Shown here: in pieces, positions 2,983-31,670 of the stretch
Layout of the letters: the number at the start of each line of letters is the position of its first letter
Position numbering within the stretch: position 1 is the stretch's first letter
Sequence record: PV660463
DNA: 64,000 bases
Reading direction: 5' to 3' (one strand)
DNA from: Escherichia phage LF82-41
The notes under the pieces: generated by a model
What the model was told of the DNA's origin: nothing
Seen by the model: the letters and a program-made list of their open reading frames with translations, nothing else
Databases searched by the model: none
Program-made: the position numbers and the translations under genes

Positions 2983-4667
2983 TAGATTCGTTCCCATTGA
3001 TGAGTGATATCGCCACCGATTGGACGATAAGAAACACCAGTTTCTTTATCAGTTAGTACCCATTTACCAGGATTTTTTGTAATCAGAGTAGCCGTTACAG
3101 GTTCTGCTACGTCATAACTAATAGAGCCGTCTTGAAGTACACGGCCCATGTTATGTAATTGCTTAGTCAGAAGTTCCATACCTTTATAATATGCGGCTAC
3201 CGCTTTAAGTGGATTATTCTTGAAATAACCACCTAATGCAATCCAGATAATTGCTACAGCCAAATGATGATACTCGTTAAACGAACTCATCTTTCCATAT
3301 TTGTAAACTAATGGATTGATGTTAATAGTCACATTACAAGTTGTTTCATCAATAGTAAACTGTCCCCAGGTCGGATTAGCATTGAATTCATCATAACCTG
3401 AAACAGCATAAAGCACTTTAGCTTCATCATATAATTTTGGCCCGTAAATCTTGGTTTCACCAAAATATCCACGAGGGTCGATAAACTTGACTTCGCCGTT
3501 ATCAGTAATCATAGTATTACTGAAGTTTGGGTCGCCGTGAATAACAGAGTACTGTCCCTGAGAACGGTTATGATAACGAATAAGATGTTCTAAAGCTTGT
3601 TTCAACATTGGCTTCAGACGTCCAATCTTAGTGTAGTTCACGTGTGTGATTTTACCAAATGAATCAATCAATGGCTGAATGCTTTCACAACGATCAATAA
3701 CTTTCGTATAGAACTCTTTAGTGAAATCACGGCGAACAGTTTCAGGACTTACAAAATAAGTGTCTGTGCTGAATTTCAGTGCATCTAAAATTGCATCAAC
3801 AATTTGTGGACGAGCAAGACTTGATTTGGATTTAATATATTCAAATGCCGGCTTACCTTTAATACGTTCCATTTCAAAATTATTTTCATTTACCGAAACT
3901 AACTGTGGAACTGAATCTGATTTCACTTTCAAATACCACGAAATCTCATCTTTCTGAAGAGCCCGTCCCTGTTCGGTTAATGCGAATTTAGTTACAGTTT
4001 CTTCACCAATTTCAACTGCATTAAAACTACGATTAAGTTCACGAACTTCATGAGCTTTTTCAAGTTTAGGCATATCACCTAAATCAATTATATTCATAAG
4101 CTCTGATTTATTGAATGCGCCGCTGTAAAGGAATTCTACGAAATCACGTCCTTTGCAGTATTCATGAATTTCCTCATCAGTAGAACCCATATAGAATTCC
4201 CAGTCTTTGAACTGATAAATTCCTACAACATTACCACCTGTTGAACCTACGTTAGTGATATTTTCACCGTCGAAATTATATCGACATTCGTCACCCTTAA
4301 CATAGATTGCGTTAACATTCCAAGACCATGAACCAAAATCAGGAATAATATCGCACCAGTTAACAACTACGTTATGGCCGTCTAAATCTTTATGTAATTT
4401 AGCAAGAGCATAAGCAGAACCATACGCTTCATCAACTGTACGAATAGTCACATTGAACCCTTCTTGCTCACAATAAGCTCGAACGGTTTCAGCAAATTTT
4501 GAATGAACTACTACAATAATTTCATCTGCGCCAAGGTCAGAATAAATTGTATACAAATTGCTCAGAATAGTGTCTTGTTTATAGTTAACAAGCACCTTAG
4601 GAATATGGTGAGTAATTGGATATAAACGAGTTGCTAATCCAGCACCAAGAATAACAGCTTTTTTCAT
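2982..4667 (-). CDS. bifunctional sugar-1-phosphate nucleotidyltransferase (N-term) / APH-type anomeric sugar kinase (C-term)
   Basis: 561 aa; N-term AVILGAGLATRLYPIT (RmlA/MurU-type G-x-G-T-R-L loop); C-term VIHGDPNFSNTMITDNGEVKFIDPRG (kinase HGD..N and D motifs, AmgK/LicA-like). Confidence 0.85.
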   Translation of the reverse strand: MKKAVILGAGLATRLYPITHHIPKVLVNYKQDTILSNLYTIYSDLGADEIIVVVHSKFAETVRAYCEQEGFNVTIRTVDEAYGSAYALAKLHKDLDGHNVVVNWCDIIPDFGSWSWNVNAIYVKGDECRYNFDGENITNVGSTGGNVVGIYQFKDWEFYMGSTDEEIHEYCKGRDFVEFLYSGAFNKSELMNIIDLGDMPKLEKAHEVRELNRSFNAVEIGEETVTKFALTEQGRALQKDEISWYLKVKSDSVPQLVSVNENNFEMERIKGKPAFEYIKSKSSLARPQIVDAILDALKFSTDTYFVSPETVRRDFTKEFYTKVIDRCESIQPLIDSFGKITHVNYTKIGRLKPMLKQALEHLIRYHNRSQGQYSVIHGDPNFSNTMITDNGEVKFIDPRGYFGETKIYGPKLYDEAKVLYAVSGYDEFNANPTWGQFTIDETTCNVTININPLVYKYGKMSSFNEYHHLAVAIIWIALGGYFKNNPLKAVAAYYKGMELLTKQLHNMGRVLQDGSISYDVAEPVTATLITKNPGKWVLTDKETGVSYRPIGGDITHQWERI

Positions 4668-23918: not shown

Positions 23919-24215
23919 TTATTGTTCTACCCATGAACAAGAGACTTCAAAATCAGGACCACCGTATTCCCAGTGATATTCACCAACAGGAATCCAGTCA
24001 CCGTGCTCGTTTTCTTCATAGTCCTCAGGCTCAAGGCCAACGAATCGCCATTGGACACCAATGATTCGATTACCCATCATTACTCGAAATTCGCCCCATG
24101 GATTATCGATAGCATACTGAATATCGTTCTTGGCACGAGAGCACATTTCTTGATATAATAAAGCTTCTAATTCACCCTGGTCATAAGGGCCAGGGAAAGT
24201 TAAATCAATACTCAT
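23919..24215 (-). CDS. hypothetical protein (98 aa)
   Basis: ORF. Confidence 0.55.
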   Translation of the reverse strand: MSIDLTFPGPYDQGELEALLYQEMCSRAKNDIQYAIDNPWGEFRVMMGNRIIGVQWRFVGLEPEDYEENEHGDWIPVGEYHWEYGGPDFEVSCSWVEQ

Positions 24216-24475
24216 TTAAAATATTCTCGTAGTTGGTCAAATCCACCAATGTGACTTCCGTCAGGAGCAAACACTTGAGGCATAGTCAATCCAACTTGTG
24301 ATTCACGTCCAAGCTTAACCAGAAGCTCAGCAATTTTCTCATCGTCGAACACACCTTTTTCCGGCATAACATTAATGAATTCGAATGGCTGTTTCTTAAC
24401 AGTCAGCAATCGTTTCGCATTATCACAATAAATGCATTTATGAATAGTAGAGTCATACCCGTACACTTTAAACAT
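24212..24475 (-). CDS. nrdC: glutaredoxin/thioredoxin
   Basis: MFKVYGYDSTIHKCIYCDNAKRLL... matches T4 NrdC; start at internal Met of ORF. Confidence 0.9.
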   Translation of the reverse strand: MFKVYGYDSTIHKCIYCDNAKRLLTVKKQPFEFINVMPEKGVFDDEKIAELLVKLGRESQVGLTMPQVFAPDGSHIGGFDQLREYFK

Positions 24476-24881
24476 TATTTTTCCTTTCATCGATTAAATA
24501 TGCAATGCCAAATACAATACATGTAATAAAACCTGTGATACAGATAGAAACCAACAACACTGTACCAAAGAACCAAATCAAGTTATCTTTAGTAGTTTGT
24601 TTGATATCCATCTCACGAATTTCTATAGCTATCGTATCACCTTTATTCAGAAGCGTATAAAACGATGGCGATACACGTCTGTCAAAAACTCGTCCTTGCT
24701 CATCTTTATAGACTGCAATAAATTCTAATTTAGAATATTTTCCTGTAGATTGGCCTGAGATTAATTCCACTACCTCCACAGGAATTACTTTAGTTTCCAT
24801 GTAAGTATTCTGGCTGTTCCAAATGAATGGAATAATAGCAAAAACTAAAGCTGTGATAAAACAACGAAGGCTATATCTCAT
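24468..24881 (-). CDS. membrane protein (2 predicted TM segments)
   Basis: 137 aa; hydrophobic N- and C-terminal segments. Confidence 0.55.
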   Translation of the reverse strand: MRYSLRCFITALVFAIIPFIWNSQNTYMETKVIPVEVVELISGQSTGKYSKLEFIAVYKDEQGRVFDRRVSPSFYTLLNKGDTIAIEIREMDIKQTTKDNLIWFFGTVLLVSICITGFITCIVFGIAYLIDERKNNV

Positions 24882-25186
24882 TATAATGTTCTCTCAAAAT
24901 TGTGGAAGCATTTACGGCATTTCAATTTCAAGTTATCAGTGGTCCAGTTAACCAGTTGGACTTGGATAGTTCCACATTCCGGACATGGGTGTTTTGCTGC
25001 CGATTTGGCAGCATTTTCACGTCGTTCAACCATTTTCATGATTTCGTTCCATGCCGGAGGAACGAACTCTTCTTCATCGTAGATATTATCTCGCTGAACA
25101 AATTCAATCTTTGAACTATCATCAATAAACTTAACTAAGCCATGATTAGTGCTCATATCAATATCCTCTAGAAGACGTAGTTTCAT
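24881..25186 (-). CDS. zinc-ribbon protein (CPECG...CRKC)
   Basis: 101 aa ORF; C-terminal four-Cys motif; exact start uncertain. Confidence 0.5.
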   Translation of the reverse strand: MKLRLLEDIDMSTNHGLVKFIDDSSKIEFVQRDNIYDEEEFVPPAWNEIMKMVERRENAAKSAAKHPCPECGTIQVQLVNWTTDNLKLKCRKCFHNFERTL

Positions 25187-26136
25187 TATAAAACCTCAAT
25201 GGCATTTCGTAAACCGTCCGCTTTCGCATTCAGAGCTTTTAACGATTTAGTTTGTTCTGCAATCTGGGCTTCGACTTCTTTCAGACGAGATTTGAGGTAC
25301 TCGCGTTCTTCAGCCATGATATCAACCTTTTCTGCTTTAGGTTCTTTAATAGTCTTAAGTTTATACTCGTTAGGGTTCTTCAGCTTAATTCGGGTGCGAG
25401 AACTGTATAACATTGAACCGTTATCTTCGGATTCGTCGAACGTTTCAACAACATCCATAGTCTCTAACAATGTAATAAGTTTATAAGACAATGAACGAAC
25501 GGTTTTGTTATGCTTATTAATTTCTTCAGCTTTCATGGTACCGAGATTACGTGAGTAGTAATAAGGAACCTGGATATCAATTGATAATGATGCGTTACCA
25601 TTACCAGTCGGTTTGAATACTGCAGTAACCCAATCTTTAACATGAACTTTATTTGTACGACCATCACCGCCCGTGAATAATTTACGAGAATGTTTAAAAA
25701 GCATATTCACTTGGTTATTGAATTCACAAGCAAATTTATCAGCAAATTTAGTTTCAGGAATGGTAGATAACCAATCAGCCAAATGAGTCTTTTTAACATC
25801 ATTAACAATAGTGAATTCAACCAAATCAGTTTTAGATGTCACAGATTTAATAAAGCTAGGCTTCATAAAGTTTTTAATGTTATCGCGAGCTACAGTAGAA
25901 GATAATAAACGAGAACGTTTGAACCATTGAAGCAGTGTCCCTAATGAATGAGAATACGCATTCTGAGTATCTTTACAAATATGATTTTCTTGGCCTGTGT
26001 ATGTACCAAAATCGCGAAGAATACCACTTACTACATCTCGGTGTGGAACATCAAATCCTAGTGCACCAACAGCGCGCTGGGCATGAACGTTAGCGATAAG
26101 ACCGGCAAAGTATTCAATGTAATGTGAACGTGTCAT
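25186..26136 (-). CDS. hypothetical protein with C-terminal coiled coil (316 aa)
   Basis: ORF preceded by repeated promoter cassette; no recognisable catalytic motif. Confidence 0.7.
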   Translation of the reverse strand: MTRSHYIEYFAGLIANVHAQRAVGALGFDVPHRDVVSGILRDFGTYTGQENHICKDTQNAYSHSLGTLLQWFKRSRLLSSTVARDNIKNFMKPSFIKSVTSKTDLVEFTIVNDVKKTHLADWLSTIPETKFADKFACEFNNQVNMLFKHSRKLFTGGDGRTNKVHVKDWVTAVFKPTGNGNASLSIDIQVPYYYSRNLGTMKAEEINKHNKTVRSLSYKLITLLETMDVVETFDESEDNGSMLYSSRTRIKLKNPNEYKLKTIKEPKAEKVDIMAEEREYLKSRLKEVEAQIAEQTKSLKALNAKADGLRNAIEVL

Positions 26137-26162
26137 AATATTTTCCTCTCGTTAAGATAGAT

Positions 26163-26195
26163 TCATTATACTCCAACCATCCTTGGTTGTAAACT
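26163..26195 (-). promoter_or_regulatory. early promoter cassette (TTTACA-17-TATAAT) with palindromic spacer; core repeated at 27182..27214
   Basis: minus strand cagTTTACAaccaaggatggttggagTATAATgaa; 27-nt core identical to next copy. Confidence 0.6.
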
Positions 26196-26198
26196 GAT

Positions 26199-27158
26199 TT
26201 ATGATTTTAATGCATTCATTGCGTTAAAAAGTTTAGAGTACTGCAACTGGAGATTCGTTACAACACTTTGAGCATCACGAAGCTTAGCTTGTGCTTTGTC
26301 AAGTTCAACGGACAGTTGGTCTACAGTAGCCTTGATTTGATTGTAATGGTAATCTTCGACCGGAAGAAGGTCATTAGAAACATTTAGTTTTACTGCAGAC
26401 AGTTTGCACACATTTGGCAAACCTTTAAACATTGATTTTCCCGAAGTAGAATATGAACCTAGAACTTCAGCATTACCAATCGGGGTTGCAGTAATTGACG
26501 CTTCAAATGTTGCATTTTCCTTTTTAAGATTTTGATAGTATTCAGAGTCTTTGTGCCACCACGGCGCAGGAACCTTTTTACCAATAGATACACGAGCCTG
26601 GATAGCGATATGGCCCTTATTCTTGATAGGGTAGATAATATTAAGCTCACGAGAATAAATTGCTTTAATCTGGTGGATATTATCACCTAAAACTTCCAAC
26701 GCTTGGTGGAATACACGAGCAACGTTATCATTCTTAGGTTTATACGTAAGAGTGAACTCGTTCTCACTGATAACCATGATTTCTAACTTATCGTAAGTAT
26801 ATTTCAAATGTTTCATGTTAATTGCTTGAGGACGAATACGAGAAGCAATGGCCATCAGATTGTTAAGGTTATTCCGGAACTGCTTAGCGAAATATTGACC
26901 TTCACCGCCAATACAAAAATTACGAAGTTTCTGTTTGGCCAATAAACGGCTGAACTCACCATTTTTAATGAACTCTTTAACGGGTGTGTTAGTAACGCAT
27001 TCAAATTGGGTAAACATACGAGAAGTAATCCCATAATATGAACAGATTTCCTCAATCTCTTCAGGAGTCTTTACAGGCATACGGATAGGATTAGGTCCTG
27101 GAGTGTATGCGTTCGAGGTAAATTCTTTGATAAGTTCTCTACGTGTAATAAAAGCCAT
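26199..27158 (-). CDS. hypothetical protein with C-terminal coiled coil (319 aa)
   Basis: ORF; same size and architecture as neighbours. Confidence 0.7.
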   Translation of the reverse strand: MAFITRRELIKEFTSNAYTPGPNPIRMPVKTPEEIEEICSYYGITSRMFTQFECVTNTPVKEFIKNGEFSRLLAKQKLRNFCIGGEGQYFAKQFRNNLNNLMAIASRIRPQAINMKHLKYTYDKLEIMVISENEFTLTYKPKNDNVARVFHQALEVLGDNIHQIKAIYSRELNIIYPIKNKGHIAIQARVSIGKKVPAPWWHKDSEYYQNLKKENATFEASITATPIGNAEVLGSYSTSGKSMFKGLPNVCKLSAVKLNVSNDLLPVEDYHYNQIKATVDQLSVELDKAQAKLRDAQSVVTNLQLQYSKLFNAMNALKS

Positions 27159-27181
27159 TTTATATTCCTCATGTTGAAAAA

Positions 27182-27214
27182 TTTATTATACTCCAACCAT
27201 CCTTGGTTGTACAT
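27182..27214 (-). promoter_or_regulatory. early promoter cassette (TGTACA-17-TATAAT), repeat of 26163..26195
   Basis: attatactccaaccatccttggttgta core identical. Confidence 0.6.
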
Positions 27215-28209
27215 CATTCCTTAAGAAGTTTTACTACTTGAATAAGATTAGCTCGTTCTGTTTTATTTTTACCGTTTAAGCCTGCTAATCGTGAGATTTC
27301 ATCGTCAGTCTGTTGAATAGTTACATTAAGTTCGTTAATCAAAGCTTCAAAGTATTTGATTTGCTCAGCATGTTTTGATTCAAATTTCTGAACAGGAATA
27401 ACATCTTGGTTCAGTTCATCAATAAGGTCTTTAAGAGCATCTTCTTGGTTGATATCATATTCAACTTCTTTTATTTCTTCAAAGAGCTCGTCTTTATATC
27501 TAACGTCTTTTAGTCCTGGAGCTGGTCCTGAAATCTCTTCTTTAAGAGTACAAACATACCCAATACGGTATCCAATGCAGTCTCGCTTGATATCAACTTC
27601 GTCGATAAATCCACAATGTTTAAGACCAGAGCCGATTATGTCAAAATATCCTTGACGTCGTCCTTCAAACGTTACACGAACTACTAAGACAGTTTTACCA
27701 CCAACCTTTTGAAGCTCACATTTATAAAAGTCTGTTGAACCTGAATAACGTGGATGAGTTTTAAAGTTCATCTGACGATCTAGGCCCATTTGTAAACGTG
27801 CTGTTACGGCCATAAAACGTGTTTGGTTCTCGTTAAGATGAGCAACAATCCATTTCAAAGGCATTTTACACTGTTCACGACCGAACAAATCAGTACGTCC
27901 TAGATTACGCAGGATGTTGTTAGAGTTAATCATCGACAGAACGTTAAGTTTATTCAGCGCGCTGAAGATTCCGTCAGCCATTGATTTCCCATAACCTTTA
28001 CACGCTTTAATAAGTGCTCGCGGCAGATTAGTATAGATTTCAGACGGCATATGAAAATCAAATTTACTAGTCAGTAATTGATGAACTTGGATAGCAATTT
28101 GCTCATAATTAAGTGCTCTGCGATCGTTATGGTCTTTAAACCACACTTTAATCTGTGAAGCACATAAACCGTTAATTTCATGTTTTACCGCATCAGATGT
28201 AATGCTCAT
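27214..28209 (-). CDS. hypothetical protein with C-terminal coiled coil (331 aa)
   Basis: ORF. Confidence 0.7.
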   Translation of the reverse strand: MSITSDAVKHEINGLCASQIKVWFKDHNDRRALNYEQIAIQVHQLLTSKFDFHMPSEIYTNLPRALIKACKGYGKSMADGIFSALNKLNVLSMINSNNILRNLGRTDLFGREQCKMPLKWIVAHLNENQTRFMAVTARLQMGLDRQMNFKTHPRYSGSTDFYKCELQKVGGKTVLVVRVTFEGRRQGYFDIIGSGLKHCGFIDEVDIKRDCIGYRIGYVCTLKEEISGPAPGLKDVRYKDELFEEIKEVEYDINQEDALKDLIDELNQDVIPVQKFESKHAEQIKYFEALINELNVTIQQTDDEISRLAGLNGKNKTERANLIQVVKLLKE

Positions 28210-28271
28210 AACTATTTCCTCAGATTGAATTGGAACTCAAAACCATTATAACCCGTCCTTGGGTAAAGCGT

Positions 28272-28799
28272 TTATGCGTGAACCGTCTTTAAACGTTCTT
28301 CAAATTTCCGAAGAGTACTAATACGTTCTGCTTTCTGTTTTGTATAGTTTGCAATACGTTCTGAAGTGAGAGCGTATCGTTCGTTTACTGTTTCTTTCAT
28401 GAAGTCAGGGATTTCACGAGAAGCTTTAATTTCATCAAACTTATCGAGTACTGCCTGGTCTTCAGCGATTAAATTTTCATACATCTCGATATCTTTCTTG
28501 ATAAACTCGATATCTTCCTGAGTTACTTTGGATAAACGAGATGCTTTATCCTTTTTGTACTGCTCGTTAGTTTCACGAGACCAGAATAATGTACGTTTTT
28601 TGTTAGTGTTTTTGTAGACTTCCACAATTCCAACTGAATCGATGATAACAATCCAATTCCAGCGAGATTTGAAAATCTGACCTCCATCCACAGTAATCTC
28701 GTTACCATAAGCAACGTCATTAAAGAACTTGCTCTGTGCTTCAGATTTAAATTTACCGTCGTTATAATTTACCAGGTTGAAAATATCTTTAGCGTTCAT
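28272..28799 (-). CDS. hypothetical protein (175 aa)
   Basis: ORF. Confidence 0.65.
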   Translation of the reverse strand: MNAKDIFNLVNYNDGKFKSEAQSKFFNDVAYGNEITVDGGQIFKSRWNWIVIIDSVGIVEVYKNTNKKRTLFWSRETNEQYKKDKASRLSKVTQEDIEFIKKDIEMYENLIAEDQAVLDKFDEIKASREIPDFMKETVNERYALTSERIANYTKQKAERISTLRKFEERLKTVHA

Positions 28800-28810
28800 G
28801 TTTTACCTCC

Positions 28811-28858
28811 AGTAGTTGATAGGTCTATAATAACATAACCATAGACCTTGTAAACAAC
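28811..28858 (-). promoter_or_regulatory. early-promoter/stem-loop cassette (PeSL-like)
   Basis: GTTTACA -35 on minus strand; palindrome aggtctat..atagacct. Confidence 0.5.
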
Positions 28859-29145
28859 TAAAAGAAACTTTTTTCGGTATTTTTTCCACTGAACCAAACA
28901 GACTTCGGGATTTTTTGTAATTTTTCAGATTTAAGTTTCTCTTCATGTTCTTTCTTATATACACTCTTGTCGTACTGGAGCATCTCTATGGCATTCTTTT
29001 GCAAATGATCTAAGGTAATTAAGGCTTTAGTTTTTCCTTTCAAGGAAGAGTCCTGGCGAACCTCCTCGCTATATTGCATTGTAGAACTAACCATACGATG
29101 TGCATAGAGTTCGACTGCGGCTTTAATTTTTTGCATAAAATCCAT
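28858..29145 (-). CDS. hypothetical protein (95 aa)
   Basis: ORF. Confidence 0.5.
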   Translation of the reverse strand: MDFMQKIKAAVELYAHRMVSSTMQYSEEVRQDSSLKGKTKALITLDHLQKNAIEMLQYDKSVYKKEHEEKLKSEKLQKIPKSVWFSGKNTEKSFF

Positions 29146-29283
29146 AACATATCCTCTTTGATTTGTACATCATTATTTTTAAATATTTCTATGCCCTCAG
29201 TAGGTTCCTGGTGTCCTTCTTTGAGGTAAGCCATATGATTATTCATCTTTATGGCTTTTGTTACCTCAGAACTTCCTATAAGC

Positions 29284-30285
29284 TTATTTCAGTAAAGTAA
29301 CTTCCGAGATTTCTTCCCAACCATCTTTATCAGTTGAAATAAAATCTGCTACATAAAGAGCCGTACGTAATGATACATTGCGAAGACGAGATACGTTAGC
29401 CTTCATCCAGGACAATGCTTTGTACGTTTCAGCATCAGTCAAGCCACGTTTCTGCATCATGTCAGTAGATAATATTACATCTTCAACTCGAACCATAATC
29501 TCTTCATTAGAGTGTACTCCAAGGTCGAGATACACTGAACGAGATACTAAAGCTTGAAGGTGCGGAGCAAGTTTCGAACCGCGTTCTAACTCTTTATCAA
29601 TATCAACGTTTGTAATGAAAACGATAGTACCTTCAAACTCAAATTCTTTATCGATACCCTTATCATCAAGATAAGATGACGCAGTGCTCCAACAAACTTT
29701 GCGTTTATCGCCGGTATCTAATGCGGCTTTAAGAAGGTTCAGGATGTCCATATCTGAGAATACGTCAACGTCATCGATTAAGAGAACGCTGTCTGCATCA
29801 CGGTTGAGCCAAAGTTGTTCGTAAAGGCCAATACCAGAGATTTTACCATTAATGCTTTTGTATTTGATGAAACCATTATCATTAGCATTACTAAGTGCTT
29901 TATCCAGAGAATACGTCTTACCAATACCAGCTGCACCTGAAATAATGAGTGAACGAATTTTGCCATCGATAATGCCATTCGTCATCATGTTCATTACTTT
30001 AAAGCGTTTGTTGATACGAGTTTTCATATCTTCAGTGCTTTCAACAACTGCAACTGGTGATGTCTCAACTCCTTCCATTACGATGTCTGATTTGAAGACC
30101 CATACTCCACGTTCAGAACCATCAATCATAACGAAAATTTTACCGTCACCTAAGTGGGAACATTCAGGATTAAGCTTTGCCGGGAACCATGTCTTTGTGG
30201 CAACATAAGAACCAGAGATTTCGTTATTACGATAAATACCTTTTTTGATTTGAACGTTGAACATTTTATTCTCCAATTTACTCAT
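29284..30285 (-). CDS. P-loop ATPase (AAA-like)
   Basis: 333 aa; Walker A GAAGIGKT, Walker B VLLIDDVD. Confidence 0.75.
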   Translation of the reverse strand: MSKLENKMFNVQIKKGIYRNNEISGSYVATKTWFPAKLNPECSHLGDGKIFVMIDGSERGVWVFKSDIVMEGVETSPVAVVESTEDMKTRINKRFKVMNMMTNGIIDGKIRSLIISGAAGIGKTYSLDKALSNANDNGFIKYKSINGKISGIGLYEQLWLNRDADSVLLIDDVDVFSDMDILNLLKAALDTGDKRKVCWSTASSYLDDKGIDKEFEFEGTIVFITNVDIDKELERGSKLAPHLQALVSRSVYLDLGVHSNEEIMVRVEDVILSTDMMQKRGLTDAETYKALSWMKANVSRLRNVSLRTALYVADFISTDKDGWEEISEVTLLK

Positions 30286-30288
30286 TTC

Positions 30289-30333
30289 GTTTCGATAGGT
30301 CTATAGTATCATATCCTAAAAGCATGTACACTA
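30289..30333 (-). promoter_or_regulatory. early-promoter/stem-loop cassette (PeSL-like)
   Basis: ttcgataggtctatagtatca...tgtacac; minus-strand TGTACA -35. Confidence 0.5.
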
Positions 30334-30362
30334 CTTTTTAAAAATATTTTAACCCCCTAAAG

Positions 30363-30378
30363 GGACCCGAAGGTCCCC
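30363..30378 (-). terminator. stable UUCG-tetraloop hairpin at 3' end of gene 30383..30649
   Basis: gggacCCGAAGgtccc; related hairpins at 8295 and 48150. Confidence 0.45.
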
Positions 30379-30382
30379 ACAT

Positions 30383-30649
30383 TTACTTATCGCACTTAGC
30401 AACATAATTAGGCATATCACAGAATACGGAGCGTGTAACTACTCGACCCTTTGACCATGCTTCAGTTGCTTGTCCTGCCGTGCTATTAATATAGCTTGAT
30501 TTAATGTTCTCAATACCCTGAGAATGTGATGCATTTACCGAACCATTTGAAGGCCCGGAAGACTGGCTACCACCAGCTCCTGCACCCGTGGTAGCACCAA
30601 CAGAGAACGCCATCATTACTGCGAATAAACCAATTACTAATTTTTTCAT
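30383..30649 (-). CDS. small secreted protein (signal peptide, Gly/Ser-rich, 2 Cys)
   Basis: 88 aa; MKKLVIGLFAVMMAFSVGA signal-like N-terminus. Confidence 0.6.
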   Translation of the reverse strand: MKKLVIGLFAVMMAFSVGATTGAGAGGSQSSGPSNGSVNASHSQGIENIKSSYINSTAGQATEAWSKGRVVTRSVFCDMPNYVAKCDK

Positions 30650-30680
30650 ATTTACCTCAAGTGAATGGTTATTTATCTAT

Positions 30681-31670
30681 TTATTTATAGTAAGAATTAT
30701 GATTTTCGAGATAGACTTGCTCAAGGAAATCATCCCAGAAACTCATATCTACTTTTTGTTGCATACCGTTCTTAGCGGCTTGTTCTGATGCTTGTTCAAC
30801 TTGGTCAACGATATCTTCTAGGAATTCTTGTACAGTTTTAAATGTATGTTTACCAAGCTTGACATCGAGAATAAATGGAGCATCCTGAAGCGGGTAAACC
30901 AGGTCGCCAGTTTTGTAAATTTCCAATAATTGAAGTCCACCACGACATGCATGACTCAATGCTTTCCAGTCAATACCTTCGTTAGCTTCTGCCTTACGAG
31001 CACGTTCACCATAGTTCTCTTCCAGTTTAACCAGGATGGCATTGAACTCTTTATTGGTTAACGTATCTTGGAATTTACGGTCCAACAGATTATAGAATGT
31101 TTGCTTACCTGTTTTCTCGTTTTCGGTTTCAACCCATGAAGCAAATTCACCTACAGGCAGAACATTCTTCATATGTGATAAACGAATTACTGCACCATTA
31201 TCAAAGTATTGTCCCCATTCATTAGAACGTTTAAGGGCTTGACGAAGAACAGCCAGTCGAGAACCCTTGACACCGTATTTAGAAGCTTGCTTACGGACAT
31301 ACCCTAAATAAGATTTCATGTTAGTGGTATAGAAACGAGACCTATTATCTTGAATATATTTCCATACATCAGGCAAATCAGATTTAACTACTAGACTTTG
31401 TGGAGTGTGAAGCATATCTAATGCGACGGTTTCACCATCCGCAGCTAGTTTAAAGAAATATTTGAGACTATACAACTCATGGTCTACGTCGTCTTTTGTG
31501 TTCTTAGAAGATGTGTTATTCGTGTTCTTGCTCATGTGTTCTTTAACGTTACCGGTCAAGATATCACGAGCATGAGGGACATAAATTTCTTTAAAATCGA
31601 CGTCAGATTCAGGAGTAGACGTTCCATAAAGGTGGCTACCAAAGTAGCTTTTCATAATTGTTTTCATCAT
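30681..31670 (-). CDS. nucleotidyltransferase-fold protein (Pol-beta-like NTase signature)
   Basis: 329 aa; GSHLYGTSTPESDVDF fits [GS]-x(9-13)-D-x-[DE] minimal NTase motif. Confidence 0.7.
   Translation of the reverse strand: MMKTIMKSYFGSHLYGTSTPESDVDFKEIYVPHARDILTGNVKEHMSKNTNNTSSKNTKDDVDHELYSLKYFFKLAADGETVALDMLHTPQSLVVKSDLPDVWKYIQDNRSRFYTTNMKSYLGYVRKQASKYGVKGSRLAVLRQALKRSNEWGQYFDNGAVIRLSHMKNVLPVGEFASWVETENEKTGKQTFYNLLDRKFQDTLTNKEFNAILVKLEENYGERARKAEANEGIDWKALSHACRGGLQLLEIYKTGDLVYPLQDAPFILDVKLGKHTFKTVQEFLEDIVDQVEQASEQAAKNGMQQKVDMSFWDDFLEQVYLENHNSYYK
30682..30689 (-). promoter_or_regulatory. late promoter candidate (TATAAATA on minus strand)
   Basis: octamer 33 nt upstream of start of secreted-protein gene. 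Confidence 0.4.

What the first reader, a model, noticed from the sequence alone, without database searches (positions are those of the whole stretch)
25186..28209. Three consecutive ~320-aa proteins with C-terminal coiled coils, each behind its own repeated promoter
Genes 25186..26136, 26199..27158 and 27214..28209 are of equal size and end in amphipathic helices, and two are preceded by identical promoter cassettes. No catalytic motifs were recognised. Equal-sized, independently promoted neighbours in a hyperplastic region suggest a diversifying paralog set (anti-defence or host-takeover candidates).
Basis: inference. Interest (0 to 1): 0.45.

Follow-up and report, generated by a model that had tools for sequence, protein, structure and literature searches.

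The report
Paralogous T4-like accessory genes on promoter cassettes
Three neighbouring genes of a T4-like coliphage are very divergent copies of one phage-only protein family, one branch of which is known from phage T4 to switch off a bacterial immune protein, and one of the three is gained or lost precisely at a repeated 26-base promoter cassette.

Summary
On the minus strand lie three ORFs of 316, 319 and 331 aa. They are the Mosigvirus counterparts of T4 NrdC.3, NrdC.5 (Pfam DUF7235) and NrdC.6; the window is about 98% identical to phages OLB35 and ATK47.

Pairwise BLASTP between the three finds nothing. Profile-profile comparison joins all three through a bridging family of syntenic genes from more distant T4-like phages (E 9e-12, 7e-8, 3e-5; reversed-sequence controls 0.03-0.5).

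They are far more diverged from T4 (26-56% identity) than their neighbours (77-92%). T4 NrdC.5 was shown experimentally to counteract the Dsr1 sirtuin defence (Srikant 2022).

An exact 26-nt repeat precedes the NrdC.3-type and NrdC.5-type genes. It holds a T4-type early promoter with a covariation-supported hairpin in its spacer. The NrdC.6-type gene has the same hairpin in a MotA-box-like promoter.

Twenty related phage genomes lack the NrdC.5-type gene, with the breakpoint exactly inside the cassette, as in PeSL-type shuffling.

AlphaFold models were poor, so the fold is unknown. The coiled coil is well supported only for the NrdC.5-type protein.

Verdict: a diversifying counter-defence-candidate paralog array, a new member of known kinds.

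The parts
25186..26136 (-). wA: 316-aa ortholog of T4 NrdC.3 (Pfam PF26897 on its close homologs)
   Evidence: ORF. 56% identity over the full length to T4 nrdC.3. PHROG 1435. Homologous to NrdC.4 (hhalign 98%, E 4.5e-14) and to the bridging K family.
26199..27158 (-). wB: 319-aa DUF7235 protein, the Mosigvirus type of T4 NrdC.5 (the anti-Dsr1 family)
   Evidence: PF23882, 405 bits, full length. 26% identity, E 1e-11, to T4 NrdC.5, which is itself PF23882 at 421 bits. C-terminal helix 267-318 is confident in AlphaFold. Heptad p = 0.01.
27214..28209 (-). wC: 331-aa protein, the Mosigvirus type of NrdC.6 (PF26899 on its close homologs)
   Evidence: 29-33% identity to T4-, VR7- and VR5-type NrdC.6. 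hhalign to the bridging K family 94.5%, E 7.4e-8, over 193 columns.
26165..26194 (-). Early-promoter/hairpin cassette upstream of wA. -35 TTTACA at 26193-26188, hairpin at 26174-26189 (loop AGGA), GGAG, -10 TATAAT at 26170-26165
   Evidence: The hairpin is the minimum-free-energy fold. Covariation.
27185..27213 (-). Second copy of the cassette, upstream of wB. -35 TGTACA at 27213-27208, hairpin at 27194-27209, -10 at 27190-27185. It is a direct repeat of the first, 1020 bp away, so the two bracket wB
   Evidence: A precise wB-less junction is found in 20 phage genomes.
28245..28270 (-). Cassette upstream of wC. MotA-box-like CGCTTTA at 28270-28264, hairpin ACCC-AAGGAC-GGGT at 28251-28264, TATAAT at 28250-28245 (13-nt spacing)
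   Evidence: Not called as a canonical sigma-70 promoter. The same layout, GCTTTA-N12-TATAAT, lies upstream of T4 nrdC.7 and VR7 nrdC.6 and of the K-type genes. Mot-box description in PMC4122927.

Best explanation
The three genes are the NrdC.3-, NrdC.5- and NrdC.6-type members of one fast-evolving protein superfamily. It is confined to T4-like phages and sits in the nrdC-tk hyperplastic region of a Mosigvirus.

Shared plan of the proteins, from alignment and predicted secondary structure:
- an N-terminal helical part with a conserved helix pair, roughly '..SRLLS...R..L.NF' followed by 'F..xFR.N...IL..ASR';
- a small beta-beta-alpha-beta-beta core;
- a variable linker;
- a C-terminal amphipathic helix ending in 'L..A...LK'.

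Shown: homology, synteny, rapid divergence, the repeated promoter-hairpin cassettes, and the precise presence/absence of the middle gene at the cassette.

Inferred mechanism. The genes are transcribed soon after infection. wA and wB use T4-type early promoters; wC uses a MotA-type middle promoter plus read-through. The proteins oligomerise through the C-terminal helix, and the divergent N-terminal domain binds a host immune protein. For the NrdC.5 type the target would be a Dsr1-like SIR2 NADase, as shown genetically for T4 NrdC.5. The paralogs would cover different targets.

The 26-nt cassette is both the promoter and a short homology. Recombination between its copies excises or inserts the gene with its own promoter, as in PeSL-type modular shuffling. 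This lets related phages swap members of the array.
For: Identity and synteny. The window is 98% identical to Mosigvirus genomes. Gene order is nrdC, nrdC.2, [wA wB wC], nrdC.8.9.10.11.

Family assignment.

Superfamily.
- NrdC.3 vs NrdC.4: 98%, E 4.5e-14. NrdC.4 vs NrdC.5: E 3e-5.
- NrdC.3+4 vs NrdC.5: 83%, E 9e-6.
- The bridging K family links NrdC.5 (E 8.7e-12), NrdC.6 (7.4e-8), NrdC.3 (3.3e-5) and NrdC.3+4 (1e-11). Reversed and unrelated controls give 0.03-0.5.
- Q7622_338 hits both the NrdC.5 and the NrdC.6 HMMs.
- The order of predicted helices and strands is the same in wB and wC.

Diversification. 26-56% identity to T4, against 77-92% for neighbours.

Function. T4 nrdC.5 expressed from a plasmid restores plating of a deletion mutant on MG1655 carrying ECOR17 dsr1 (PMC9391042).

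Cassette.
- Exact 26-nt repeat with promoter matches.
- Hairpin: 90% of cells paired, 4 of 6 pairs with compensatory changes, 0 of 500 shuffles reach this, and slid controls collapse.
- 20 genomes carry wC + one cassette + wA in a single 657-nt alignment at 96.6-98.6% identity. The p000v junction was read directly.
- The PeSL precedent is in PMC2839356 and PMC4122927.
Against: - No usable 3D model was obtained (pLDDT 40 and 48). Foldseek found only own-family hits. A shared fold is therefore inferred from sequence profiles, not seen.
- wA's own profile links to the bridge only at 72% probability.
- NrdC.6 does not align directly to NrdC.3, NrdC.4 or NrdC.5 above control level.
- An exhaustive HMMER search with the DUF7235 profile did not reach NrdC.3, NrdC.4 or NrdC.6.
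- wB is only 26% identical to the tested T4 protein. Nothing is known experimentally for NrdC.3 or NrdC.6.
- How NrdC.5 acts on Dsr1 is unpublished in the library searched.
- The coiled coil is not significant for wC.
- The hairpin is thermodynamically unremarkable (z about 0). It has no U-tract, so it is not an obvious terminator as in classical PeSLs.
Confidence: 0.6

Rival explanations
1. The array is a counter-defence array, but the Mosigvirus NrdC.5-type protein no longer targets Dsr1. Each lineage's copy has been retuned to another immune sensor or host factor.
For: wB is only 26% identical to T4 NrdC.5, with large indels in the middle of the protein. The family is very narrow and splits into lineage-specific types. 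The eLife paper describes the same kind of 'tuning' for TifA homologs.
Against: The most conserved blocks between the T4 and Mosigvirus types are long: residues 52-141 and the C-terminal helix. This fits a retained core function. Both types are full-length members of one Pfam family.
Confidence: 0.25
2. The paralogs are subunits of a single hetero-oligomeric early complex, joined through their homologous C-terminal helices. The complex has one host-takeover function unrelated to immunity.
For: The C-terminal modules of NrdC.3, NrdC.5 and NrdC.6 resemble each other more than reversed controls do (E 5.7e-5, 1.5e-3, 7e-3). They end in the same L..A...LK pattern. The genes are adjacent and co-oriented.
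Against: - Gene content varies freely. Mosigvirus lacks nrdC.4. Dhakavirus and Gaprivervirus lack nrdC.3. Twenty Mosigviruses lack wB. More distant genera carry a single copy.
- That is hard to reconcile with an obligate complex.
- T4 NrdC.5 alone complemented the Dsr1 phenotype.
Confidence: 0.12
3. The three proteins are not true paralogs. They are unrelated orphans of similar size that converged on a helical N-terminus plus a C-terminal coiled coil, and the profile matches are driven by composition.
For: - No pairwise BLASTP signal.
- No direct NrdC.6 link to the other families.
- HMMER does not cross between families.
- Coiled coils inflate profile scores.
Against: - The bridge alignments cover 190-250 columns, including the non-coiled core.
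- Reversed-sequence controls, which keep composition, score E 0.03-0.5.
- NrdC.8, which is also helical at its C-terminus, scores 0.18.
- The bridging genes occupy the same genomic slot, directly upstream of nrdC.2.
- All three genes carry the same covarying hairpin upstream.
Confidence: 0.07
4. The repeated 26-nt element is only a strongly selected promoter sequence. The wB-less genomes arose by unrelated deletion, and the cassette has no role in gene mobility.
For: Promoters are under selection and can be similar. Homology of 26 nt is short for T4 recombination.
Against: - The spacer, which promoters normally leave free, is identical between the two copies and contains a covarying hairpin.
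- In the wB-less genomes the left flank is the wB-type and the right flank the wA-type. The crossover therefore lies inside the cassette.
- A T/C polymorphism in the hairpin switches between the two cassette copies in close relatives.
- Recombination between such cassettes has been shown physically in RB49 and phi1.
Confidence: 0.06

Closest known systems
T4 NrdC.5 / Pfam DUF7235 (PF23882), the Dsr1 counter-defence gene of Srikant et al. 2022
   Same: wB is a full-length DUF7235 member. It sits in the same genomic slot, has the same early-gene context and the same C-terminal helix.
   Different: Only 26% identity, with a shorter N-terminus and a different middle region. No activity data exist for the Mosigvirus type. 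The mechanism of the T4 protein is itself unknown.
T4 NrdC.3, NrdC.4 and NrdC.6 (uncharacterised T-even ORFs; PF26897 and PF26899 as precomputed on homologs)
   Same: wA is 56% identical to NrdC.3. wC is about 30% identical to NrdC.6-type proteins. Gene order is the same.
   Different: Mosigvirus has no nrdC.4. Its NrdC.7-like gene sits elsewhere. T4's own NrdC.6 has lost the C-terminal helix through a frame change.
PeSL cassettes (promoter-early stem-loops) of T4-type phages, Arbiol 2010 and Comeau 2014
   Same: They are short repeated units of a sigma-70-like early promoter plus a stem-loop, in intergenic gaps of a hyperplastic region. They bracket accessory genes that are gained or lost at the repeat.
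   Different: - Here the stem-loop lies inside the promoter spacer, between -35 and -10. Published PeSLs have it just upstream of the promoter.
- Its stem and loop (NCCA-AGGA-TGGN) differ from the published T4/PST motif AGNA-loop-TCNT.
- It has no U-tract and no unusual stability, so terminator function is doubtful.
- The motif is restricted to this one gene cluster.
DSAD1, the SPbeta-phage inhibitor of the DSR2 sirtuin defence
   Same: It is a phage protein without catalytic motifs that neutralises a SIR2-domain NADase defence (abstracts listed). It is a functional analogue for the proposed mode of action.
   Different: No sequence relationship was found. The defence protein differs (DSR2, not Dsr1), as do the phage lineage and the host.

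Membership tests
DUF7235 / NrdC.5 family (wB) | Full-length match to the Pfam PF23882 model above its gathering score | tested here: met
   405 bits against a cut-off of 30, covering residues 15-318 and model positions 1-307. T4 NrdC.5 scores 421 bits on the same model.
DUF7235 / NrdC.5 family (wB) | Direct sequence homology to the experimentally tested T4 NrdC.5 | tested here: met
   BLASTP gives 26% identity over 308 columns, E 1e-11. 58 columns are invariant across the Mosigvirus and T4 types.
DUF7235 / NrdC.5 family (wB) | Counteracts Dsr1 (restores plating on dsr1-carrying E. coli) | not testable with these tools
   Known only for the T4 protein (PMC9391042).
NrdC.3 family (wA) | Full-length orthology to T4 NrdC.3, in the slot directly upstream of nrdC.2 | tested here: met
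   56% identity over residues 2-316. The gene overlaps the nrdC.2-like ORF at 25186. Close homologs carry PF26897.
NrdC.6 family (wC) | Homology to NrdC.6-type proteins across core and C-terminus, in the slot next to nrdC.8 (or nrdC.7) | tested here: met
   29-33% identity, E 1e-18 to 1e-26. 42 invariant columns. Close homologs carry PF26899.
One NrdC.3/4/5/6 superfamily (all three genes) | Significant profile-profile similarity over the non-coiled core as well as the C-terminus | tested here: met
   Through the bridging K family: E 8.7e-12, 7.4e-8 and 3.3e-5, and 1e-11 for NrdC.3+4, with controls at 0.03-0.5. Directly: NrdC.3-NrdC.4 E 4.5e-14 and NrdC.4-NrdC.5 E 3e-5. NrdC.6 is not linked directly.
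One NrdC.3/4/5/6 superfamily (all three genes) | Same three-dimensional fold | tested here: inconclusive
   AlphaFold pLDDT was 40 and 48. Foldseek matches were own-family only, with TM 0.2-0.36. Only the order of secondary-structure elements agrees.
Coiled-coil C-terminus | A long uninterrupted helix with hydrophobic a/d heptad positions beyond chance | tested here: inconclusive
   wB: helix 267-318, a/d 1.00, p = 0.01. wA: a/d 0.90, p = 0.09. wC: helix broken at GLNG, and the best heptad window is not at the C-terminus, p = 0.21.
PeSL (promoter-early stem-loop) cassettes | A repeated sigma-70-like early promoter in intergenic gaps of a hyperplastic region | tested here: met
   TTTACA-17-TATAAT and TGTACA-17-TATAAT fit the T4/PST consensus TTTACW-N17-TAYWAT. 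Exact 26-nt repeat.
PeSL (promoter-early stem-loop) cassettes | An associated conserved stem-loop | tested here: met
   A 5-6 bp stem with an AGGA loop. 90% of cells are paired, 4 of 6 pairs show compensatory changes, and 0 of 500 shuffles reach this. It lies inside the spacer, not upstream of the promoter as published.
PeSL (promoter-early stem-loop) cassettes | The stem-loop acts as a transcription terminator | tested here: not met
   By sequence criteria only: there is no U-tract after the stem, the terminator scan does not call it, and the fold is -6.9 kcal/mol with z about 0. No experiment was possible.
PeSL (promoter-early stem-loop) cassettes | Gene gain or loss with breakpoints at the cassette | tested here: met
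   20 genomes match the predicted wB-less junction in one piece at 100% coverage. The p000v junction was read directly.
PeSL (promoter-early stem-loop) cassettes | Formation of excised minicircles | not testable with these tools
   Shown only for RB49 and phi1.

The most novel reading that the evidence does not exclude
The covarying AGGA-loop hairpin built into the promoter spacer could be more than short homology. It could be a dedicated recombination or processing signal that travels with each copy of this counter-defence family. The nrdC.3-nrdC.7 cluster of T-even phages would then be an integron-like array in which promoter-plus-gene cassettes against different host immune sensors are excised, captured and reshuffled between co-infecting phages. 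The adjacent GGAG-UAUAAU might serve as a RegB cleavage site on read-through RNA.
Probability: 0.15. Interest if true: 0.7.

Novelty: new member of a known kind. Interest (0 to 1): 0.4.

Why it matters
The finding places three 'hypothetical' genes, often mislabelled 'thioredoxin', into one superfamily. That superfamily contains the only known phage antagonist of the Dsr1 sirtuin defence. NrdC.3-, NrdC.4- and NrdC.6-type proteins, and the single-copy relatives in Klebsiella, Enterobacter and Edwardsiella phages, therefore become concrete candidates for further counter-defence factors.

The natural pairs of near-identical Mosigviruses with and without the NrdC.5-type gene are ready-made isogenic-like material for host-range tests. 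This is relevant to choosing therapeutic coliphages.

The precise cassette-bounded indel is also a clean new example of promoter-cassette-mediated gene shuffling in T-even phages.

Tried and rejected
- Pairwise BLASTP among the three proteins found nothing.
- Word-indexed homolog searches returned only close relatives. They did not return all families placed in the query alignments.
- An exhaustive HMMER search of 1.84 billion representatives with the DUF7235 profile gave 16 hits, all T-even-type or coiled-coil noise. It did not cross to NrdC.3, NrdC.4 or NrdC.6.
- AlphaFold2 of wB with a 43-sequence superfamily alignment gave pLDDT 40. AlphaFold2 of wC with 5 sequences gave pLDDT 48.
- Foldseek against BFVD therefore gave only sequence-driven own-family hits. 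One weak hit, to the IME523 protein, later proved to be a bridging-family member.
- I ran no further search on such poor models.
- PDB sequence searches, NCBIfam and Rfam on 24000-31000 found nothing.
- Direct hhalign of NrdC.6 against NrdC.3, NrdC.4 and NrdC.5 stayed at control level.
- The GenBank label 'thioredoxin' for these ORFs, and the ATK47 note 'possible binding site of StbAB' inside wC, have no support in any search. I rejected both.
- Reading the hairpin as an intrinsic terminator was rejected on sequence grounds.
- Literature searches found no mechanism for NrdC.5 and nothing on NrdC.3, NrdC.4 or NrdC.6 function.


Full report
**What the window is**

The 4.1-kb stretch around the finding is 97-98% identical to complete genomes of Mosigvirus phages, which are RB69-like T-even coliphages such as OLB35, ATK47 and SHSML-52-1. 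The surrounding ORFs are nrdD, endonuclease VII, nrdC, then a run of 'nrdC.N' genes up to the nrdC.11 nucleotidyltransferase. All lie on the minus strand. This is the nrdC-tk hyperplastic region of T4-like phages.

**Checking the observation**

The three ORFs exist exactly as given: 25186..26136 (316 aa, here wA), 26199..27158 (319 aa, wB) and 27214..28209 (331 aa, wC). Each has a GAGG ribosome-binding site about 8 nt upstream of the start codon.

The 26-mer ACAACCAAGGATGGTTGGAGTATAAT occurs exactly twice in 64 kb, at 26165-26190 and 27185-27210. None is expected in shuffles. Each copy sits in the gap directly upstream of wA or wB.

Both copies score as sigma-70-type promoters:
- TTTACA-17-TATAAT (11 of 12 positions) upstream of wA;
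- TGTACA-17-TATAAT (10 of 12) upstream of wB.

This fits the T4/PST early consensus TTTACW-N17-TAYWAT quoted by Comeau et al. (PMC4122927).

No enzyme domain was found by Pfam, NCBIfam or PDB-sequence searches.

**Which genes they are**

- wA is the ortholog of T4 NrdC.3, with 56% identity over the full length.
- wB is a full-length member of Pfam DUF7235 at 405 bits. It is 26% identical (E 1e-11) to T4 NrdC.5, which is itself DUF7235 at 421 bits.
- wC is about 30% identical to NrdC.6-type proteins of Tequatrovirus, Gaprivervirus and Dhakavirus.

Mosigvirus lacks nrdC.4. Many GenBank records call these ORFs 'thioredoxin'. Nothing supports that label, and it appears to be name propagation from 'nrdC.N'.

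**Are they paralogs?**

Pairwise BLASTP among wA, wB and wC shows nothing. With small family profiles built from T4, VR7, VR5, Sf25 and IMG/VR loci, local hhalign gave:

| Comparison | Probability | E-value |
|---|---|---|
| NrdC.3 vs NrdC.4 | 98% | 4.5e-14 |
| NrdC.4 vs NrdC.5 | 72% | 3e-5 |
| NrdC.3+4 vs NrdC.5 | 83% | 9e-6 |
| NrdC.6 vs any of these | control level | – |

An exhaustive HMMER search with the DUF7235 profile against 1.84 billion representatives found only 16 proteins. All were T-even-type or coiled-coil noise.

The link came from synteny. More distant T4-like genera carry a single 309-338-aa gene directly upstream of nrdC.2. These are Kanagawavirus (Q7622, IME523, PEi26, Entb_45), Mosugukvirus PM2, Marfavirus Marfa and Jiaodavirus Mineola. 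I call this the K family.

The Q7622 protein hits both the NrdC.5 and the NrdC.6 HMMs. A profile of the K family matches the other families as follows with the session's hhalign tool:

| Family vs K | Probability | E-value | Columns |
|---|---|---|---|
| NrdC.5 (A5) | 97.5% | 8.7e-12 | 240 |
| NrdC.6 (A3) | 94.5% | 7.4e-8 | 193 |
| NrdC.3 (A10) | 72% | 3.3e-5 | 226 |

In the local run, NrdC.3+4 vs K gave 97.4%, E 1e-11. Reversed-sequence controls gave E 0.03-0.5, and the unrelated helical neighbour NrdC.8 gave 0.18.

The alignments cover the non-coiled core, for example 'F..xFn.N.R.iLalgSRl', as well as the C-terminus. I therefore accept that all three window genes belong to one superfamily. 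wA has the weakest direct link to K. Its membership rests on the NrdC.3-NrdC.4 match (E 4.5e-14) and the combined NrdC.3+4 profile's match to K (E 1e-11).

**Structure**

Both AlphaFold2 runs gave poor models: wB pLDDT 40 and wC pLDDT 48. Foldseek against BFVD returned only own-family hits at low TM-score. A weak wC hit to the IME523 protein later proved to be a K-family member.

What can be used is the secondary structure. Both proteins show the same order:
- N-terminal helices, including a conserved helix pair;
- two or three strands, a long helix, then two strands;
- a disordered linker;
- a C-terminal helix.

The wB C-terminal helix (267-318) is the only confident part. Its heptad a/d positions are all hydrophobic, with shuffle p = 0.01. 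For wA the value is 0.90 with p = 0.09. For wC the helix is interrupted at GLNG and no significant heptad signal was found. The C-terminal modules of NrdC.3, NrdC.5 and NrdC.6 resemble each other above reversed controls.

**Rate of change**

Identity between the window and T4:

| Gene | Identity |
|---|---|
| gp49 | 91% |
| NrdC | 92% |
| NrdC.8 | 83% |
| NrdC.10 | 77% |
| NrdC.11 | 77% |
| NrdC.3 | 56% |
| NrdC.6 | 29% |
| NrdC.5 | 26% |

Gene content also varies:
- T4 has nrdC.3, .4, .5, .6 and .7.
- VR7 and VR5 have .4, .5 and .6.
- Mosigvirus has .3, .5 and .6.
- Several genera have one copy.

**Function**

Srikant et al. (eLife 2022, PMC9391042) found that an evolved T4 clone with deletions could not plate on ECOR17. 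Deleting dsr1 in ECOR17 restored plating. Plasmid-borne dsr1 protected MG1655 against the mutant. [quoted passage not shown]

No mechanism is published in the library searched, and nothing is published on NrdC.3, NrdC.4 or NrdC.6.

My mechanistic proposal is inference, by analogy with DSAD1 acting on DSR2. In it, the protein oligomerises through the C-terminal helix. The variable N-terminal domain binds the immune sensor and prevents NADase activation. The paralogs cover different targets.

**The cassettes**

The core CCAAGGAYGG occurs three times in the window, only in the three gaps upstream of wA, wB and wC, against 0.05 expected. The same motif lies upstream of nrdC.3.4.6 and .7 in T4, VR7, VR5 and other loci.

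It forms a 5-6 bp stem around an AGGA loop. Across ten distinct versions:
- 90% of cells are paired;
- four of six pairs show compensatory changes;
- no shuffle out of 500 reaches the observed covariation;
- sliding the partner by one to three columns collapses the signal.

The hairpin is the minimum-free-energy fold but is not unusually stable (z about 0). It has no U-tract, so it does not look like a terminator.

In the wA and wB cassettes it lies inside the promoter spacer and is followed by GGAG and then TATAAT. Upstream of wC it lies between CGCTTTA and TATAAT with 13-nt spacing. That is the layout of a MotA-dependent middle promoter: a Mot box TGCTT followed by a -10 (the 11-13 nt spacing is from my own knowledge of T4 middle promoters). 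The K-type genes have clean TGCTTTA-N12-TATAAT promoters without the hairpin. So 'each behind its own promoter' is right, but wC's promoter is of a different class.

**Test of cassette-mediated mobility**

The two identical cassettes are direct repeats 1020 bp apart that bracket wB. I built the junction expected if they recombined: the wC 3' end, one cassette, then the wA 5' end, 657 nt in all.

Twenty phage genomes match it in a single piece at 100% coverage and 96.6-98.6% identity. One more covers 82% of it. In p000v the 331-aa gene is followed directly by the 316-aa gene. The junction reads wB-type left flank, cassette, wA-type right flank.

A T/C polymorphism in the hairpin sits in the wA copy in ATK47 and in the wB copy in an IMG/VR relative. 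This suggests exchange between the copies.

This is the behaviour described for PeSL cassettes in RB49/phi1 and in T4/PST. The differences are that the stem-loop here is inside the promoter and that the motif is private to this gene cluster.

**Verdict**

The region is a diversifying array of paralogous early and middle accessory genes. One branch of the family is an experimentally shown counter-defence factor. The genes are carried on repeated promoter-hairpin cassettes that mediate gain and loss.

The genes, the Pfam families, the Dsr1 link and the PeSL concept are all already known. New here are three modest points: the superfamily unification through the bridging family, the covarying hairpin inside the promoter, and the precise wB indel. 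I file it as a new member of known kinds, with moderate interest.

Noticed in passing
L005 (Shigella phage Sf25) 4896-8623: The NrdC.4, NrdC.5 and NrdC.6 genes of Sf25 each carry an internal tandem duplication of about 83 aa (416, 424 and 378 aa, against 333, 340 and 295). Three equal-sized duplications of about 250 bp in adjacent genes look more like an assembly artefact than biology.
   Followed up: partly
P0113 (metagenome protein, 299 aa): A natural NrdC.5::NrdC.3 fusion protein. The NrdC.5 middle region is joined at a 'VN' microhomology to the NrdC.3 C-terminal two-thirds. This implies a deletion that removed nrdC.4 and parts of both neighbours.
   Followed up: no
P0119 (173 aa): A protein with an unrelated N-terminal 120 aa fused to a near-identical T4-type NrdC.5 C-terminal helix (E 1e-19). 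Its N-terminal part has no good match in the phage collection. It may be a module swap or a chimeric contig.
   Followed up: partly
L002 (T4) 3461-4288: T4's own NrdC.6 (275 aa) ends in a different, frame-shifted tail (…ELIFLFNNMMMKFSDYLD). It lacks the C-terminal helix present in other Tequatrovirus NrdC.6 proteins of 295 aa.
   Followed up: no
window 24468-24881 (-): The 137-aa membrane-protein gene next to nrdC is 41% identical to T4 NrdC.7. It sits where T4 has nrdC.1, so the NrdC.7-type gene has a different position in Mosigvirus.
   Followed up: no
window about 28800-28860 and 30286-30340 (-): The gaps upstream of the nrdC.8-like and nrdC.10-like genes share a different conserved block just after the -10 (TATAGACCTATC). 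T4 has its own shared block at the same two genes (GGTACTATACAACTATCAACT). This is a second promoter-cassette family.
   Followed up: no
window 26165-26174 and 27185-27194 (-): On read-through RNA the cassette reads GGAGUAUAAUG/A. That partly matches the RegB/S1 target consensus GGAGRAYARAA (PMC1702504). RegB might cut just 3' of the hairpin. This is untested.
   Followed up: no
L001 7386 and 8406; L007 5954 and 6974: A T/C polymorphism at the loop-closing position of the hairpin is found in the wA-upstream copy in ATK47 and in the wB-upstream copy in an IMG/VR relative. This is consistent with gene conversion between the two cassette copies.
   Followed up: no
window 30383-30649 (-): An 88-aa ORF between the nrdC.10-like and nrdC.11 genes has a signal-peptide-like N-terminus and a Gly/Ser-rich region (MKKLVIGLFAVMMAFSVGATTGAGAGGSQSS…). 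T4 has no gene there.
   Followed up: no
L001 8752-8762 (ATK47 annotation), inside the wC ortholog: The ATK47 record annotates an 11-nt 'direct repeat sequence1 possible binding site of StbAB' inside this coding region, and labels several nrdC.N ORFs 'thioredoxin'. Neither label is supported by any search here.
   Followed up: partly
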